Positions 767-60,624 of a stretch of 64,000 nucleotides of DNA are shown piece by piece. The DNA lies in assembly GCA_951406725.2 (NCBI GenBank), contig OX597832.1:27404001-27468000 (forward strand). Direction: 5' to 3'. A model generated the notes under the pieces. It was not told the origin of the DNA and made no database searches. It worked only from the letters and a program-made list of their open reading frames with translations. Position 1 is the stretch's first letter. The number at the start of each line of letters is the position of its first letter. The position numbers and the translations under genes were made by a program. This DNA comes from Octopus vulgaris (taxonomy: Eukaryota).

Positions 767-965
767 TGTAACCACAAGTGAATTGTTGGCGATGTTCTTC
801 CTCCGTCTTCATGTTCTATTGGGCTTTCCTCTGTTTCTGAAGAAGAGCGTCTGCTCGAAACGTTAAACCATCTTTCTTTCCTTCCCTGAGCGTCTGCCAA
901 TACTTTACATGTACCACGTCCTGGCGTTGTTGTTGTTTGTGTTTGCTGTTCTTTGGATTTATTAC
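765..965 (+). mobile_element. ~200-bp non-autonomous hammerhead-containing element (Penelope-like or retrozyme-like), copy 1
   Basis: Aligns by eye with 2825-2985, 4785-4976, 6903-6983, 7148-7297(-) and 58868-59075(-) through the shared ctgagcgtc..aatact..ccacgtcct(c/g)gcgttgttg motif. Flanked by TA-rich repeats. Confidence 0.8.
833..868 (+). ncRNA. Minimal type-I hammerhead ribozyme (family 1)
   Basis: GTTT-CTGAAGA-A-GAGC(gtct)GCTC-GAAA-CG-TT-AAAC: stem I GTTT/AAAC, intact CUGANGA and GAAA core, 4-bp stem II, palindromic AACGTT stem III, GUU cleavage triplet. Confidence 0.8.
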
Positions 966-2824: not shown

Positions 2825-2985
2825 TCCTATTTCGACTTCCTTATTTTCCCGTTTCTGATGAAGAGTTTTGCTCGAAATGTAAAACACCATTTCTTCCCTT
2901 CCCTGAGCGTTTTATTAATACTTTGCATCTACCACGTCCTCGCATTGTTGTTTTTTCTCCTTTTTTCTTCGTCTTTTTGATTATA
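2825..2985 (+). mobile_element. Hammerhead-containing element, copy 2
   Basis: Homologous to 765-965. Confidence 0.75.
2851..2885 (+). ncRNA. Minimal type-I hammerhead ribozyme (family 1)
   Basis: GTTT-CTGATGA-A-GAGT(ttt)GCTC-GAAA-TG-TA-AAAC, with intact core and a GUA triplet. Confidence 0.7.
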
Positions 2986-4784: not shown

Positions 4785-4976
4785 ACACGCGATTTTTTTT
4801 CCTCTGTCTTCCCTTCTCTGGATCTTTCCTTCTCCTATGTTTCTGACAAAGAGCTCCACTCGAAACGTTAAACCCTCCTTCTTTCCTTCTTTCCTGAGCG
4901 TCCAATAATACTATATTTGTTCCACGTCCTCGCGTTGTTGTGTTTTTTTTTTGTGCTTTCATGTTTGGATTAACTA
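4785..4976 (+). mobile_element. Hammerhead-containing element, copy 3 (HHR 4839-4873 with core mutation CUGACAA)
   Basis: GTTT-CTGACAA-A-GAGC(tcc)ACTC-GAAA-CG-TT-AAAC. The G8A change is probably inactivating. Confidence 0.75.
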
Positions 4977-7153: not shown

Positions 7154-7297
7154 ATCCAAACAAGAAAGCACAAAAAACACAACAACGCGAGGATGTGGAA
7201 CAAATATAGTATCATTGGACGCTCAGGAAAGAAGGAGGGTTTAAGGTTTCGAGCGGAGCTCTTCGTCGGAAACATAGAAGGAAAGATCCAGAGAAGG
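7148..7297 (-). mobile_element. Hammerhead-containing element, inverted copy (HHR 7239-7273, degenerate)
   Basis: Minus strand: GTTT-CCGACGA-A-GAGC(tcc)GCTC-GAAA-CC-TT-AAAC. Confidence 0.75.
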
Positions 7298-17297: not shown

Positions 17298-18905
17298 TCT
17301 TTTCTACTCTAGGCACAAGGCCCGGAATTTTGGGGGAGGGGGCCAGTCGATTAGATCGGCCCCAATACGTAACTGGTACTTAATTTATCAAGCTCCAAAG
17401 GATGAAAGGCAAAGTCGACCTCGGCGGAATTTGAACTCAGAACGTAAAATCAGACGAAATACCGCTAAGCATTCTTTCCGGCGTGCTAACGTTTCTTTCT
17501 ACTCTAGGTACAAGGCCGAAATTTTGGAGGAGGGGGCCAGTCGATTAGATCGGCACCAGTACGTAACTGGTACATAATTTATCAAGCCCGAAAGGATGAA
17601 AGGCAAAGTCGACCGCGGCACATTTGAACTGAGAACGTGAAGATAGACAAAATACCAATTTCTTTACTATCCACAAGGGGCTAGACACGGAGAGGACAAA
17701 CGGATTAAGTCGAATAAATCGACCCCAGTGCGTAACTGGTACTTATTTAATCGACCCCGAAAGGATGAAAGGCAAAGTCGACCACGGCGCATTTGAACTG
17801 AGAACGCGAAGACAGACAAGATACCTATTTCTTTATTACCCACAAGGGGCTAAACACAGACGGGACAAACAAGGACAGACATATGTATTAAGTCGATTGC
17901 ATCGACCCCAGTGCGTAACTGGTACTTAATTTATCGACCCCGAAAGGATGAAAGGCAAAGTCGACCTCGGCGGAATTTGAACTCACAACGTAACGCAGAC
18001 GAAATACCGCTAAGCATTTCGCCCGGCGCGCTATCGATTTTGCTAACTAACCGCCTTAATGATAATAATACAAATAACAAATTTTGGCAGACGGCCTTCA
18101 ATTCTGAAGATGGGGCCTAGAGGCTTACATCGACCCAGAACTTCAAAACGTCACTGGTGCTTCATGTTATCGACCCCGAAAGAATGAAAAGAGGTTCGAC
18201 TTCGGCGAGATTTGAACTCAGAACGTAAAGTGCCTGAAGAAATGTCGCTAAATATTTTGACCGATGTCCAAACGATTCTCCTTTCCAATTGCGTTTCTAA
18301 AAATGGTTTCAAGTTTTGGCACAGGGCCTGCAATTTTAGAGGAAGAAGCTGGTCGATTATGCTGACCTCCGATATGAGACTGGTGGATGGAAGTACTCCG
18401 TCGGTTACGACGACGAGGGTTCCGGTTGATCCGAATCAACGGAACAGCCTGCTCGTGAAATTAACGTGTAAGTGGCTGAGCACTCCACAGACACGTGTAC
18501 CCTTAACGTAGTTCTCGGGGATATTCAGCGTGACACAGAGAGTGACAAGGCCGGCCCCTTTGAAATACAGGTACAACAGAAACAGGAAGTAAGAGTGAGA
18601 GAAAGTTGTGGTGAAAGAGTACAGCAGGGATCACCACCCCCTGCCGGAGCCTCGTGGAGCTTTAGGTGTTTTCGCTCAATAAACACTCACAACGCCCGGT
18701 CTGGGAATCGAAACCACGATCCTATGACCGCGAGTCCGCTGCCCTAACCACTGGGCCATTGCGCCTCCACACGAGACTGGTACATATTCTATCGACCCCC
18801 GAAGATGAAAGACAAAATCGACCTCGGCGGAATTTGAACTCAGAACGTTAAAAGATGAAAGAATTCACCGCAAGGCTGTTTGTCCAACACTCAAACGCTT
18901 TCTGT
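17298..18905 (-). mobile_element. Cluster of about six head-to-tail SINE family D copies, the last interrupted by SINE A
   Basis: Repeated ctggtactt..atcgacccc gaaaggatgaaaggcaaagtcgacc.cggc..atttgaact in copies spanning about 17298-17495, 17492-17657, 17658-17825, 17826-18058, 18080-18290 and 18303-18905. Confidence 0.92.
18385..18770 (-). mobile_element. Full-length tRNA-derived SINE family A, nested, with TSD
   Basis: tRNA-like head on minus (ggcgcaatggcccagtggttagggcagcggactcgcggtcataggatcgtggtttcgattccc). TSD a(t/c)gagactggt at 18374-18384 and 18771-18781. Confidence 0.92.
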
Positions 18906-20341: not shown

Positions 20342-21117
20342 GTGTTTGTGTTTATGTGTGTGTGAGTATTTGTGTGTGTGTGTGTGTGTACAACGTACAT
20401 TATTACGCACACACACGTATGAAGACAGTGCAATCTATTTATGAATCTCCGCGAGTGTGTGGGTGTATAAAAGCGATATCCGTGGAGATCCTGTTCAACC
20501 TGTGTCATCATATATCACCTACGAGAAGAGATCGATGACGGTGACGACGACGACGGCGGCGACGACGACGACGACGGCGACAATGGAATTATGTCAGCTT
20601 AGAAGGTCTTTGAAGGAGAGATGTGAAAACCGCAAATACTCTGGATATATACTCAACACCTACCAACATCAACATCACCATCATCAACATCACCATCATC
20701 ATCATCATCTTCATCATCATCATCAGCAGCAGCAGCATCGTCATCAAAGTACATTCCTCTCTCATTCCCAAATGTGATTTCTCTATTCCACTTTATAAAA
20801 AAACACATACTGTTACAAGGTGTGTGTGTGTGTGTGTCTGTGTTTGTAAATACCCACATGCATACTCACATAACATAAATACACACACACATACATAGAA
20901 AGATACACACATATATACATGCATAAATATATATATAAATATGTATATATATATATATATATTATATGTACATATATATATAAATATTATATATTATATA
21001 TAATATATTATATATTATATATATCAATATTATATATCATATATATATGTATATATATATATATAAATATTATATATTATATATAATATATTATATATAT
21101 ATATATCAATATTATAT

Positions 21118-21184
<67 letters not shown>

Positions 21185-21357
21185 ATAAATATTAGGGAAT
21201 AAATCCAAATTTACAGGGAAAAAAATCAGATTTAGGATTAAATCCAATTTTATATAAAATATTATAAAATATTATTAGAAACAAAACCATATTTTGCAAA
21301 ACAAACAAGGAAAGACTTAATCAATACATAAAATTTTAATAAATAGTCAAAAAACCG

Positions 21358-21400
21358 CCACTACAATCGTTTCTTGTCTTGATCGACAATCTTCAGGTGG
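21358..21400 (-). ncRNA. Type-I hammerhead ribozyme (family 2), fully canonical core
   Basis: Minus strand: CCAC-CTGAAGA-TTGTC(gatcaa)GACAA-GAAA-C(gatt)G-TA-GTGG. All three stems pair and the triplet is GUA. Confidence 0.85.
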
Positions 21401-21471
21401 ACTTCAATCTAAAATATCAATATTTTAAAATATACAAATAAATTATATATATCAATATTGTATATCATATA

Positions 21472-21543
<72 letters not shown>

Positions 21544-22338
21544 TAGGTAGGTATGTAGATTGATAGATACATAGATAGCTAGATAGGTGTATGGATACAG
21601 GATGTCACCAACAGTGCAAATAACATGAAATACGTGAACGAGGGGAAAAATGAGTGAAATACGTAAACAATGAGAAAAAAATGGAGAACATGGCAAGTAA
21701 ACAGAGAGAAAGGGCCCTTCATCGGTTGTCGGCTGTCTAATCTACTCCTCATTTCGAGCATTCAACGACAATATGAGTCTTCAAAGACAGTTGCTCCCAT
21801 AAATTCTAAAATAAAATTTAGGATTTATGGAGGGTTAAAATTGGGAACAAACAAAAGACTATGGAGATATACAAGGAAACGGAACGAAAACAAACACGGA
21901 GCCTCGTTTGACCAGAACGAGAGGAAAATAGTTAACGGTGGGAGAAACATTTTCTTTGGAAAAGAGAAAAGATAGAAGATAGAGAGAAAAAACACGTCCG
22001 TTCTTTTAAACGTTCGTGCAAGGAAAGAAAGATGGTCAACTGCAGAAGAGAAGGATGGACGATGGTCACGAGTGAGCAATGAGAGAGGGGAGAAAAAGAG
22101 AAAGGGGGTGGGAGAGACAGATAGAAAACGGTGAAGGAGGGGGAGGGCAAAAAGAGAATTAGAGAAGGTTCGAGGAAGAAAACATTATAGAGAGTCGCAT
22201 TGAAAAGGTGACTATTCGTCAATGTATTTGTATATCTCTCTATTTATCTAATTTATTTTACTCAGACACATATTCGCTTATTAAAATAGTATAGGGGCAT
22301 TGCTTATTCACCCGCTAATCGAATTAATAGTTTATAAT

Positions 22339-22724
22339 GGAAGCACTCCGTCGGTTACGACGACGAGGGTTCCGGTTGATCCGAATCAACGGAACAGCCT
22401 GCTCGTGAAATTAACGTGTAAGTGGCTGAGCACTCCACAGACACGTGTACCCTTAACGTAGTTCTCGGGGATATTCAGCGTGACACAGAGAGTGACAAGG
22501 CCGGCCCTTTGAAATACAGGTACAACAGAAACAGGAAGTAAGAGTGAGAGAAAGTTGTGGTGAAAGAGTACAGCAGGGATCACTACCATCCCCTGCCGGA
22601 GCCTCGTGGAGCTTTTTATGTGTTTTCGCTCAATAAACACTCACAACGCCCGGTCTGGGAATCGAAACCGCGATCCTATGACCGCGAGTTCGCTGCCCTA
22701 ACCACTGGGCCATTGCGCCTCCAC
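22339..22724 (-). mobile_element. Full-length SINE family A with 13-bp TSD
   Basis: Nearly identical to 18385-18770. TSD aatagtttataat at 22326-22338 and 22725-22737. Confidence 0.93.
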
Positions 22725-22865
22725 AATAGTTTATAATACCTGTTTAGCAATAAGCTATTACTATAAACGATGAGTTGGGCATAAAGACTGGAACTGAAGA
22801 GGAAATGAGATAAGACATGGAACAGTGTAATGGTAAACGGGAACTGGGAATAACTCCCACTTACC

Positions 22866-23092
22866 CGAGCTGGCAGAAACGTTAGCACGCCGGGCGAAAT
22901 GCTTAGCGGTATTTCGTCTGCGTTACGTTGTGAGTTCAAATTCCGCCGAGGTCGACTTTGCCTTTCATCCTTTCGGGGTCGATAAATTAAGTACCAGTTA
23001 CGCACTGGGGTCGATGTAATCGACTTAATACCTATGTCCGTCCTTGTTTGTCCCTTCTGTGTTTAGCCCCTTGTGGGTAGTAAAGAAATAGG
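22866..23092 (+). mobile_element. Near full-length SINE family D
   Basis: gagctggcagaaacgttagcacgccgggcgaaatgcttagcggtatttcg..gagttcaaattcc..ccccttgtgggtagtaaagaaatagg. Confidence 0.92.
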
Positions 23093-23474
23093 TATTACTG
23101 GTCAATTCATTTATTTTACTCAGATGCGTATTTGCTTGTTAAAATAATACAAGGACATTCTTTATTCACCCACTATTCGTATTAATAGTTTTTAATACTC
23201 ATTTTTAGCAATAAACTATTACCATAGATGGTTAATGAAATATTTAATGGCTTAATTACGCCTAACTGATTATAAAAATTATACATTGACTTAGGATTGG
23301 GGATAGGACGTGAAACAGTGTAATGGGAACAGGAACTGGAAATAACCCTCGCTTTTCCGGGTATTACTGGGTAATTCATCTAGTATATATATATACACAC
23401 ACATTATATACATACACATATGTACATACATACATACATACATACATACATACATACATAGATACATACATACG

Positions 23475-23582
<108 letters not shown>

Positions 23583-23734
23583 TGTATGTGTGTGTATGTG
23601 TGTGTGTATGTGTATATATATATATATATCTATATATATATATATACACACACACATACGTCATATTATGTATTTCGAAGCACACACACACATAACACAC
23701 ATATTAGTTCAGTGTGTGTCTATATATAATATAA

Positions 23735-24109
23735 TGGAGCCGCAATGGCCCAGTGGTTAGGGCAGCGGAGTCGCGTTCGTAGGATCGCAGTTTCGATTCC
23801 AAGACTGGGTGTTATGAGTGTTTATTGAGCGAAAACATCTAAAGCTCCACAAGGCTCCAGTGGTGGCGAAACCTGCTGTACTCTCTCACCACAACTTTCT
23901 CTCATTCTTTCTTCCTGTTTCTGTTGTACCTGTATTTTCAAAGGGTCACCTTTGTCACACTCTGCATCACGCTGAATCTCCCCCGAGAACTACGTTAAGG
24001 GTACCCGCGTCAGTGGAGTGCTCAGCCACTTGCACGTTAATTTCGCGAGCAGGCTGTTCCGTTGATCGGATCAACTGGAACCCGCGTCGTCGAAACCGAC
24101 GGAGGAGTA
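23735..24109 (+). mobile_element. Full-length SINE family A (older copy)
   Basis: tggagccgcaatggcccagtggttagggcagcgg..cgtcgtcgaaaccgacggag. Confidence 0.9.
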
Positions 24110-29606: not shown

Positions 29607-30831
29607 CATACATATACATATACCTACATACATACACATATATATATATATATATATATATAAATATATATATACATATACTTACACGAAGCACACGCAA
29701 ACTCATTAATATTCTACGAATATAATTTCCCATAATATCTGATACCAAATTGTATCACATCTCATCACATCGCATCACGTCAAATCACGTCAAATCACGT
29801 AAACATCACGTATGAAGCGGTATGCATTTCGAAACTTCTCAGACCGATACACACACAACACTCGATCGATACAAAAGTCAAACAAAGGTTTCTGCAAACA
29901 TAATGACACAGAATAAAAAATTCTTATGTTTGTGGTGTGCTTCTCCATTCAGCAGACAAGACATCGATACCTTCAACTTTGTTACCGTCAATAATGAAGA
30001 GTTCTACTTTGATCCGATGATTCAAAATGGAAGTACAATGCAACTATTTGCTGTGATTAAATACCTTTGCGTATTTATTACATGATTAACTTGTCGGTAG
30101 CTTTTGCTGACTGCGCATGTTTTCTGCCAACGTTTTTTTTTTTTTACTTTCTATCTTTTTATAAACTTCTCTCCTTTATTTTCTATGTATAATTTTATGT
30201 GTCTCCTTTTCCGTTTGTCGTTTTTTTTTTTTTTCGTTTTGTAATTTCAGCTGTGCTTTTTTTTTGTTATTATAATAATAATAATGATATCTGTGACGAC
30301 TATCTCTGCAATGTCATTAATAATAGGTCTTAAGTCTGTATGAAAATTTACCTTGTTAATGAATGGTTGTTAAGCAAGACGTGCGCGTTAAGAATTTTTG
30401 TTGCCAAGTGTGTTGTTTTCAATAGGCATGGCTGCTAATAAACACAATCCGTTAGTTGTGATGGGAAATACAAAAGACTTAGAAATGGGAGGGTGTATGG
30501 GGGGTGGGGGGTGAATGGTTGCTTAGTAGCGAAAAAAGAACACTGTAGCTGTGTATTCTTCTGGAAGTACCATTATGAAACAAGCACCAACCGTGCTATT
30601 GTTTTACAACCACCTGATAACCAAGAACTACCACAGACAACTGCGATAGTCTCATTTCCACACTACTGTCAAAGAACACTGTGTAGCCATCGTACTGTCA
30701 CTATACCACAACCGCCATCACCACCATCACCACCACCACCACCACCACCACCACCACCATCACCACTTCCACCACCATCACCACCACTATCATCACCCAC
30801 TACCACCACTAAAACCATCAACCCCATTACC

Positions 30832-31059
30832 TGTTTCTTTACTACCCGCAAGGGGCTAAACACAGAGGGGACAAACAAGGACAGACATAGGTAGTAAGTC
30901 GATTACATCGACCCCAGTGCGTAACTGGTACTTAATTTATCGACCCCGAAAGGATGAAAGGCAAAGTCGACCTCGGCGGAATTTGAACTCACAACGTAAC
31001 GCAGACGAAATACCGCTAAGCATTTCGCCCGGCGGGCTAACGTTTCTGCCAGCTCGCCG
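30832..31059 (-). mobile_element. Full-length SINE family D with 7-bp TSD
   Basis: Near-identical to 22866-23092. TSD cattacc at 30825-30831 and 31060-31066. Confidence 0.92.
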
Positions 31060-31225
31060 CATTACCAACCCCATTGCCAGCCACAACTAGCACACCTAGC
31101 ACTACCAACAATAACAACACTACCACCACAACCATCATCCACCACCACTATCACCCACCACCACGCACTACCACGTTTACGGCCGATTCACCATAGTGAA
31201 TAAACCTAGAGTTCACACATACACG

Positions 31226-58867: not shown

Positions 58868-59075
58868 TTAATGCAAACATCAAAACACAAAGAGAAAACA
58901 CAACAACGCGAGGACGTGGAACAAGTATAGTGTTATTGGACTCACAGGAAAGGAAAGAAAGAAGGAGGACTTAACGTTTCGCGCGGAGCTCTTCGTCAGA
59001 AACATAGGAAAAGGTTAAGATCCAAGGAAGAGAAAACGGAGGAAAAATCGCCAACGATACACACGCGGTCACATA
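58868..59075 (-). mobile_element. Full-length hammerhead-containing element (HHR 58969-59003)
   Basis: Minus strand starts atgtgaccgcgtgtgtatcgttggcgatttttcctccg, like copy 1 at 766. HHR GTTT-CTGACGA-A-GAGC(tcc)GCGC-GAAA-CG-TT-AAGT. Confidence 0.8.
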
Positions 59076-59711: not shown

Positions 59712-60624
59712 CATGCAGTTAGAATAGCATGCAGTTCAATGCTGAAAAGTTTCAAGCTTTATGCTATCAGCATGCAAAACTAAATGCAATACCCAATGAA
59801 TACACTGGACCTGGAGGGATTGCAATCCCAGAGGCACAAACAGTGCGTGACCTGGGTATTTACATGAGTGATGACGCAACCTTTCATGTACATGTTGCTA
59901 AATTGGCAATGAAATATAGACGGCTGGCCGGATGGATTCTTAGAACCTTTAGAACAGGAGACCAAGAAACCATGTTGGTCCTCTGGAGGACACTTGTCCT
60001 AAGCCACTTTGACTATTGCTCTCAGCTATGGTCACCATCCAGTGTCAAGTTGATCACAGAACTTGAGGCGATCCAACAAAGCTACACGAAGAAGATAGCC
60101 TCTGTGCAGCATATAAGCTACTGGGAAAGACACAAGAGATTAAAACTCTATTCCTTGGAGCGTAGGCGAGAAAGATATGCCATAATATACATCTGGAAAA
60201 TCCTGGAAGGACTTGTCCCAAACTTTGGAATCGAGAGTTACACAAATGCAAGAACTGGGAGCCACTGCGTGGTGCCAAGGACTCCAAATTTGCCATCAAG
60301 ATGTAGGACAAGATACTGTGATAGCCTGGGCTTCAGAGGCCCACAGCTCTTCAATATCCGCCCGATGAGCCTGAGGGACCTGTATGGGGTGGATGGGGAT
60401 GTCTTTAAAGTAGGACTGGATCTCTTCCTGTCAGGTGTCCCGGATGAACCAACTTCACGGCTGGAGGTGCAGATGAGGGCAGCTGCATCGAACTCTCTCA
60501 TGCACCAAATGGCAGTTGCTAAAAAGCATTCGTGAAGTAAAATCATGTAGCAACACCAAATGGCGGTGCCCCAGCATGGCCACAGCTCGTGAGCTGAAAC
60601 TAGATAAAATAAAATAAAATAAAA

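What the first reader, a model, noticed from the sequence alone, without database searches (positions are those of the whole stretch)
21181..21480. Second, unrelated and fully canonical hammerhead inside an AT-rich unit bracketed by direct repeats
Seen: minus-strand CCAC-CUGAAGA-UUGUC(gaucaa)GACAA-GAAA-C(gauu)G-UA-GUGG at 21358-21400 has all three stems paired. ACGAUUGU is fully self-complementary with G:U pairs, so it could dimerise. The motif tatatatatcaatatt(a/g)tatatcatatata occurs at about 21016, 21099 and 21445, on both sides of the unit, which suggests a partial tandem arrangement. Inference: this is the best candidate for a currently active ribozyme in the window and a distinct family.
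Basis: partly seen in the sequence, partly recalled or inferred. Interest (0 to 1): 0.7.

Follow-up and report, generated by a model that had tools for sequence, protein, structure and literature searches.

The report
Penelope-type dimer hammerhead in high-copy repeat
This is a real self-cutting-RNA (hammerhead) motif in one copy of a very abundant 264-base repeat that is likely the tail end of a Penelope-like jumping gene; it is predicted to cut only when two copies pair, a kind of ribozyme already described, and cutting was not tested.

Summary
The hammerhead at 21358-21400 (minus) is real: intact core, stems of 4, 5 and 2 bp, a self-complementary stem III, and 0 equally strict hits in 200 shuffles. 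It is not fully canonical: stem II opens U-A, stem III is predicted unformed (P 0.04), and with native flanks other folds win by 3-5 kcal/mol; two copies fold best as a double hammerhead. It sits in a 264-bp, 22% GC repeat (21181-21444) between (TA)n runs. One public run lays 9541 contigs on it, and 20 of 24 listed runs (10 studies) hold at least part. The commonest variant makes stem III a perfect palindrome. The flanking motif is real but lies outside the family boundary, and no head-to-tail joint appeared, so 'partial tandem' is not supported; an ~83-bp target duplication fits better. Architecture, 3' position and (TA)n context match Hydra-clade Penelope-like element hammerheads; no ORF was found, so the clade is unproven. 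Best reading: a 3' (pLTR) remnant or non-autonomous derivative of a Penelope-like element with a dimer-type hammerhead. The scan noted this kind before on other genomes (four notes). New family, known kind.

The parts
21181..21444 (-). One copy of a high-copy dispersed repeat, 264 bp, 22% GC, no ORF; likely 3' end (pLTR) of a Penelope-like element or its non-autonomous derivative
   Evidence: 9541 contigs of run X1 laid, summed depth 8.6e4-2.7e6 over 21181-21440 and 4,100 or less beyond; GC; six frames closed
21358..21400 (-). Type I hammerhead motif: stem I 4 bp, core CUGAAGA, stem II 5 bp, GAAA, stem III 2 bp plus self-complementary loop, GUA triplet
21363..21370 (-). Self-complementary stem III/loop III (8 nt), predicted dimer interface; position 21368 varies in the family to a perfect palindrome
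   Evidence: duplex -5.8 kcal/mol; 21368 C>T in 402,449 of 842,903 summed depth, 88 contigs of X1
21361..21362 (-). Predicted cleavage site, after A21362; the 3' product would start at G21361
   Evidence: Sequence and hammerhead numbering; cleavage not tested
21222..21251 (-). Predicted 13-bp hairpin near the 3' end of the unit, inside a short ~21-bp sub-repeat (21194-21252); possible recognition stem for a reverse transcriptase (inferred)
   Evidence: z -3.8 (0 of 200) in a 41-nt window picked after seeing the fold, z -1.8 (9 of 200) in an 80-nt window
21099..21181 (+). Left flank: 30-nt TA-rich motif plus (TA)30; candidate left copy of a target duplication
   Evidence: 2 mismatches in 83 ungapped bases against 21445-21527, of which about 50 are pure TA
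21445..21541 (+). Right flank: the same motif plus (TA)32; candidate right copy of the target duplication; not part of the repeat family
   Evidence: depth 4,100, 1,476, 376 in the last bins
20963..21128 (+). Local ~82-bp tandem duplication of degenerate TA-rich DNA that holds the first two motif copies (21017, 21099)
   Evidence: Sequence

Best explanation
The stretch 21181-21444 is one dispersed copy of a very abundant non-coding repeat, likely the 3' end (pseudo-LTR) of a (TA)n-targeting Penelope-like retroelement or a short non-autonomous derivative of one, and it carries a hammerhead that is predicted to cut after GUA only when two copies pair through their self-complementary stem III. 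Shown: the motif, its conservation, the high copy number, the boundaries, the (TA)n context. Inferred: in the parent element two pLTR copies in one transcript (or two RNAs) swap strands at stem III into a double hammerhead and cut the precursor; the RNA is copied back into (TA)n by target-primed reverse transcription from the 21181 end; 5' truncation left this 264-bp piece; staggered nicks copied about 83 bp of target to the right side. This solo copy is likely a passenger with little cleavage of its own. The closest clade by architecture is Hydra.
For: Motif beyond chance. Dimer is the two-strand minimum, -21.4 kcal/mol, while stem III costs 0.8 kcal/mol in the monomer. 9541 contigs laid in one run, 20 of 24 listed runs from 10 studies and 6 coded organisms hold part of it. 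Only change at 5% share or more inside the 43 nt in X1 keeps self-complementarity. Two contigs from two other coded organisms span 21181-21405 with no listed change in the motif (X14 record 9, X16 record 11). One X16 contig shows (AT)n beside the same left end (table 7). PMC8557442 File S2/S1, counted by eye: 25 of 25 Hydra-clade families have AC...GU stem III, 11 of 25 a GUA triplet, 15 of 25 a U right after CUGANGA and 11 of 25 read UUG there as this motif does; the motif lies 87-425 nt from the 3' end in 24 families (240 here); 26 of 27 families list (TA)n as target. PLE hammerheads with small palindromic helix III and dimer-only, low cleavage are described in PMC4209133. 5'-truncated PLE insertions of median 128 bp into a microsatellite target are described in PMC9977147.
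Against: No RT or GIY-YIG ORF next to the unit or among 107 complex frames of the window, and no long copy could be fetched, so the link to a PLE rests on architecture and context. The published Hydra-1_Obim hammerhead and 3' end differ from this unit by eye. Stem III is 8 nt here against 9 or 10 nt in all 25 Hydra families. The motif is not measurably more conserved than the rest of the unit (1 of 43 against 10 of 217 variable places, Fisher p 0.70). A self-complementary loop arises in 36 of 256 loops, and 3 of 12 single changes keep it, so the palindrome evidence is modest. The sharp fall of depth at 21440 may mean a fixed 5' end rather than random truncation. ViennaRNA ignores core and tertiary energies.
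Confidence: 0.72

Rival explanations
1. The unit is a solo monomer of a non-LTR retrozyme: elsewhere it stands in head-to-tail arrays, is transcribed, cut to ~260-nt monomers and circularised.
For: Size (264 bp) and low GC fit the 150-450 bp, under 50% GC range of PMC7229834; families with mostly monomers exist and derive from PLE pLTRs (10.64898/2026.07.22.740005); target duplications of retrozymes are said to be larger than 4 bp; depth ends sharply at 21440.
Against: No joint that goes back from the right end to the left end in 4 of 4 runs laid; the 2 joints listed are deletions. No second copy in 64 kb. The whole unit is weakly folded (-37.8 kcal/mol over 264 nt), unlike the highly self-paired circles described. 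Contigs break at (TA)n, so arrays spaced by (TA)n would not show.
Confidence: 0.17
2. The motif is an efficient monomeric ribozyme at this locus, cutting host read-through or intronic transcripts.
For: All core bases intact; in the isolated 43-mer stems I and II form (P 0.89, 0.71) and the hammerhead fold is only 1.1 kcal/mol above the minimum; GUA is a working natural triplet (PMC1636495); an axolotl motif with a 2-bp stem III and tetraloop cut 22% in one hour as monomer (PMC7229834).
Against: With 13 or more native flanking bases on both sides the fold is 4.1-5.3 kcal/mol above the minimum and stem I has P 0.02 or less; no G10.1-C11.1 pair; two contigs of guessed-RNA runs bridge the cut site; 8 of 9 predicted Xenopus retrozyme dimers did not cut in vitro.
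Confidence: 0.08
3. The motif is a chance pattern in an AT-rich repeat with no ribozyme history.
For: No Rfam hit; fold z -0.70; no excess conservation.
Against: 0 strict hits in 200 shuffled windows; 44% GC island in a 22% GC unit; close match of layout and position to 25 Hydra-clade motifs.
Confidence: 0.03

Closest known systems
Hammerheads at the 3' end of Hydra-clade Penelope-like elements (Craig et al. 2021, PMC8557442, File S2)
   Same: Type I; short stem I; U after CUGANGA and UUG start of stem II in many families; AC...GU self-complementary stem III; GUH triplet often GUA; position 87-425 nt from the 3' end; (TA)n target; a Hydra family is recorded in Octopus bimaculoides.
   Different: Stem III is 8 nt (9-10 in all 25 listed); U-A pair where many Hydra motifs have a U.U mismatch; sequence unlike Hydra-1_Obim by eye; no ORF here, so the clade-defining protein motifs could not be tested.
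Metazoan PLE minimal hammerheads and variants with small palindromic helix III (Cervera and De la Pena 2014, PMC4209133)
   Same: Helix I 4-5 bp without defined loop 1, palindromic positions 15.2-16.2 and loop 3, mostly single dispersed motifs from truncated PLEs, predicted dimer action.
   Different: Lacks the extra base between 9 and 10.1 followed by G10.1-C11.1; helix II 5 bp rather than 7-8; has a 4-nt loop 3.
Metazoan non-LTR retrozymes (Cervera and De la Pena 2020, PMC7229834; Li et al. 2026, 10.64898/2026.07.22.740005)
   Same: Short, low-GC, non-coding unit with one type I hammerhead; shared by related species; PLE-derived.
   Different: No tandem array or circle shown; no loop 1-loop 2 tertiary element; unit weakly self-paired; sits in (TA)n.

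Membership tests
Type I hammerhead ribozyme | Conserved core CUGANGA, GAAA, UH around three helices, ends in stem I | tested here: met
Type I hammerhead ribozyme | Site-specific self-cleavage after H17 | not testable with these tools
   Needs an in vitro assay; contigs cannot show RNA ends
Canonical (fast) type I hammerhead | G10.1-C11.1 pair, 6-bp helix I and loop 1-loop 2 tertiary contact | tested here: not met
   U-A opens stem II; stem I is 4 bp and does not extend without a break; canonical layout as described in PMC4209133; no Rfam hammerhead hit
PLE dimer-type hammerhead | Short helix III with palindromic 15.2-16.2 and loop 3 | tested here: met
   8-bp self-duplex; commonest family variant keeps it
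PLE dimer-type hammerhead | Lies in the pLTR / 3' end of a PLE with RT and GIY-YIG ORF | tested here: inconclusive
   No ORF in the unit or among 107 frames; longer copies could not be read (X16 loose ends of 85 and 99 nt beyond 21401-21405)
Hydra clade PLE | Insertion into (TA)n | tested here: met
   (TA)30 and (TA)32 flank the unit; one further contig shows (AT)n at the same left end
Hydra clade PLE | Hammerhead near the 3' end with AC...GU stem III | tested here: met
   240 nt against 87-425 nt in 24 families, counted by eye; stem III 8 nt against 9-10
Hydra clade PLE | ORF with RWK, DKT, CxCX5C linker and C-terminal GIY-YIG lacking CCHH | not testable with these tools
   Features from PMC8557442 section 11; no genome held, no ORF in hand
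Non-LTR retrozyme | 150-450 bp non-coding unit, GC under 50%, one type I hammerhead | tested here: met
   264 bp, 22% GC
Non-LTR retrozyme | Head-to-tail tandem copies, each with a hammerhead | tested here: inconclusive
   None at this locus and no back-going joint in 4 runs, but contigs break at (TA)n and the genome is not held
Non-LTR retrozyme | Abundant linear and circular monomer RNA | not testable with these tools
   No listed holder is on record as RNA; contigs only

The most novel reading that the evidence does not exclude
This is an undescribed, very high-copy, SINE-like non-autonomous element with fixed ends, mobilised by a (TA)n-targeting Penelope-like partner; its RNAs cut by pairing in trans through an 8-nt palindrome, and this locus, because its TA tract carries a unique interruption, exposes an ~83-bp target-site duplication, about ten times the 8-10 bp reported for rotifer Penelope elements and normally invisible in pure (TA)n.
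Probability: 0.2. Interest if true: 0.45.

Novelty: new member of a known kind. Interest (0 to 1): 0.22.

Why it matters
As it stands it adds one more family to a described class: dimer-type hammerheads at the 3' end of Penelope-like elements. It would matter more in two cases. First, PMC8557442 says target duplications often cannot be discerned for microsatellite-targeting PLEs; a real ~83-bp duplication would give the nick spacing of such an endonuclease. Second, the role of PLE hammerheads is still open, and a family with thousands of near-identical copies and two natural palindrome variants is a convenient substrate for testing cleavage in trans.

Tried and rejected
Whole genome: none held, so copy number, tandem arrays and the empty site could not be checked. 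Rfam: 0 hits at gathering in the window; only TA-driven microRNA-like matches at E up to 10 in 21100-21600. Pattern scans: 0 in metagenome contigs, 0 in prokaryote genomes, 1 in viral contigs (L001), which lacks stems I and III by eye and was dropped as chance. Pfam on all 107 complex frames of 45 aa or more: 2 weak DUF matches below cut-off, no RT or GIY-YIG. Expression: no RNA holder listed; this says nothing either way. Run X3 (guessed RNA) covers only 21181-21331, the part downstream of the predicted cut, but a part without cover is no evidence; I laid 4 of the 24 listed runs. No place with many molecule ends (table 6), which contigs cannot show. One X1 loose end (18 contigs) behind 21405 holds a stop after three codons on the minus strand; too short to call an ORF end. 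Excess conservation of the motif: not found (p 0.70). The idea that the flanking motif is a decayed end of the unit: best match 78% over 32 nt, E 0.57, rejected. My descriptor needed at least 5 nt in stem III and no extra base before stem II, so it missed the intact minimal hammerheads at 837 and 2855; my notebook entry was wrong on this and is corrected. Four of the short terms searched in the PMC8557442 supplement found no match to this family. Lunse et al. (PMC5785218) is not held; I saw only its title and a review's account. Literature searches for this family in cephalopods listed no paper describing it; Repbase, Dfam and published repeat libraries were not searchable, and supplements of the bioRxiv preprint and of PMC13282606 were not read, so the family may already be catalogued.

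Full report
Observation. Stem I is 4 bp, the core CUGAAGA is at 21396-21390, stem II is 5 bp with a 6-nt loop, GAAA is at 21373-21370, stem III is AC/GU around GAUU, and H17 is A21362, so a cut would leave a 5' end at 21361. A three-stem descriptor found this site only; 200 block-wise dinucleotide shuffles of the whole window gave 3 loose hits and no hit as strict. The motif is 44% GC inside a 22% GC unit. Rfam does not score it and the 43-mer folds no better than its shuffles (z -0.70).

How canonical. The core is complete and GUA is a working natural triplet (PMC1636495, passages). But the canonical metazoan type I layout (6-bp helix I, loop 1-loop 2 contact, G10.1-C11.1 pair; PMC4209133, parts 1-2 of 4 read) is not met. 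In the monomer stem III costs 0.8 kcal/mol and has pairing probability 0.04. In the 43- and 55-mer the hammerhead fold is 1.1 kcal/mol above the minimum; in the six longer contexts tried it is 2.6-5.3 kcal/mol above, because upstream bases pair with stem II and downstream bases with GAAAC. Two 43-mers have the double hammerhead as their minimum, -21.4 against 2 x -6.5 kcal/mol. These energies ignore the catalytic core, so they rank folds only roughly.

The unit is a high-copy repeat. No second copy lies in the window and no genome is held. Of 24 listed public runs, 20 hold part of 21183-21445 (16 with half the words or more), from 10 studies and 6 coded organisms; none is on record as RNA. I laid 4 of them on 21181-21472 at 80% likeness. 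Run X1 laid 9541 contigs. Summed depth is 8.6e4 to 2.7e6 from 21181 to 21440 and then 4,100, 1,476, 376 and 0. The tool warns that this is no copy number; set against 12-144 for the longest single contigs it suggests thousands of copies (inference). Contigs of X3 and X14 start at 21181 and one of X16 shows (AT)n there, so the left end is shared. Two contigs (X14 record 9, X16 record 11) span 21181-21405 with 1-2 other letters and 3 gaps, none listed in the motif. This copy lacks one base at 21254, 21289 and 21348 against those contigs, probably one at 21404, and has a private base at 21280, so it has aged a little or holds assembly errors. In X1 the only change at 5% share or more inside the motif is 21368 C>T (48% of depth, 88 contigs), which turns a G:U pair of the dimer helix into A-U. 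Two low-depth X16 contigs (3.3 and 4.8) carry changes in stem III and loop II, one of them at U16.1. The palindrome evidence is modest (36 of 256 loops are self-complementary; 3 of 12 single changes keep this), and the motif is not more conserved than the rest of the unit (1 of 43 against 10 of 217 places, p 0.70).

The direct repeats. The 30-nt motif stands at 21017, 21099 and 21445 and nowhere else at up to 3 mismatches. It lies beyond the family boundary, and the only 2 joints are deletions, so a partial tandem of the hammerhead unit is not supported. The first two copies belong to a local ~82-bp duplication. 21099-21181 matches 21445-21527 with 2 mismatches in 83 bases, and the match starts within a base of the right end of the unit. 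That is the layout of a target-site duplication of motif plus (TA)n. About 50 of the 83 bases are pure TA, and the copy at 21017 matches 21445 for 49 bases with 1 mismatch, so insertion into an older three-unit array, a later duplication or an assembly fault remain open. Rotifer Penelope elements have 8-10-bp duplications and 193-218-bp pLTRs (PMC3846280, passages); 126-bp and longer ones are known for other non-LTR elements (PMC9977147, passages).

What it most likely is. PMC8557442 (abstract, sections 3, 11, 15, passages, supplement parts 1, 2, 52, 53) describes the Hydra clade: short PLEs of aquatic invertebrates, hammerheads near the 3' end, almost all inserted in (TA)n, one family in Octopus bimaculoides. 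Counting its tables by eye: 25 of 25 families have AC...GU stem III (19 of 9 nt, 6 of 10 nt, none of 8), 11 cut after GUA, 15 have U after CUGANGA, 11 read UUG there; the motif lies 87-425 nt from the 3' end in 24 families (Penelope-18_HMa left out, its listed motif is in the 5' copy) against 240 here; 26 of 27 list (TA)n. The Hydra-1_Obim motif and 3' end are different sequences by eye. The window's microsatellite load and SINE-like repeats look octopod to me; that label is recalled and no call tested it. No RT or endonuclease remnant was found in 107 complex frames. So 'works like a PLE dimer-type hammerhead' is well supported, 'is the end of a PLE or its derivative' is likely, and 'is Hydra clade' is a lead (about even odds).

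Mechanism. Shown: motif, boundaries, abundance, (TA)n flanks, retained palindrome. Inferred from the family: the parent transcript bears two pLTR hammerheads that exchange strands at stem III and cut after GUA; PMC4209133 found no cleavage for a single minimal motif and low cleavage for dimers, a review says the same (PMC6765202, passages), and 8 of 9 Xenopus dimers did not cut (10.64898/2026.07.22.740005, parts 1-3 of 5). The RNA would be copied into (TA)n from the 21181 end, where a predicted 13-bp hairpin lies (21222-21251; z -3.8 in a window chosen after the fact, -1.8 in a wider one). De novo PLE insertions are short through 5' truncation (median 128 bp). The retrozyme reading stays open because size and GC fit (PMC7229834, passages and section 13) and retrozymes derive from pLTRs, but no array or circle was seen.

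Best candidate in the window? Not shown. The other family has five copies read; those at 837 and 2855 keep core, stem II, a loopless self-complementary stem III and a 4-bp stem I, so they are intact minimal hammerheads; 4843 and 7269 have core changes and 59000 has stem mismatches.

Novelty. A new family of a described kind. Searches listed no paper on it; PMC13282606 (passages) reports 31 recently active Penelope-like families in Octopus vulgaris and does not mention ribozymes in its main text; repeat libraries and unread supplements may hold it. The scan has four earlier notes of PLE minimal hammerheads on other genomes, none on this DNA; the one sequence look-alike shares 3 of 61 words and is unrelated. 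Interest 0.22; the long-duplication reading has probability 0.2 and would deserve 0.45.

Noticed in passing
window about 825-880 (+), 2845-2900 (+), 4830-4890 (+), 7225-7280 (-), 58955-59010 (-): Second hammerhead repeat family of the minimal PLE type (extra A before stem II, G-C closing pair, loopless 4-nt stem III). Copies at 837 and 2855 look intact; the other three carry core or stem changes.
   Followed up: partly
window 21099-21181 and 21445-21527: 83-base direct repeat (2 mismatches, about 50 bases pure TA) abutting both ends of the unit; candidate long target-site duplication.
   Followed up: partly
window 21194-21252: Three ~21-bp sub-repeats and a predicted 13-bp hairpin at the 3' end of the unit.
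   Followed up: partly
window 59723-60535 (+): 270-aa open frame that looks like the C-terminal part of a LINE ORF2 (likeness recalled); no Pfam hit.
   Followed up: partly
window 21715-21770 (-): A neighbouring repeat-like stretch holds a GAAA box followed about 30 nt later by a CUGAUGA-like box with one change, i.e. the two core halves in reverse order; stems I and III do not pair by eye.
   Followed up: no
window 17301-18771, 22337-23096, 23723-24104, 30828-31064: Several 230-390-bp SINE-like repeats, up to 97% identical between copies; no tRNA gene called in the window.
   Followed up: no
run X16, loose ends behind 21401 and 21405: Relatives in another coded organism continue 85 and 99 nt past the hammerhead's 5' side with sequence unlike this copy; they may be longer or different subfamilies.
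   Followed up: no
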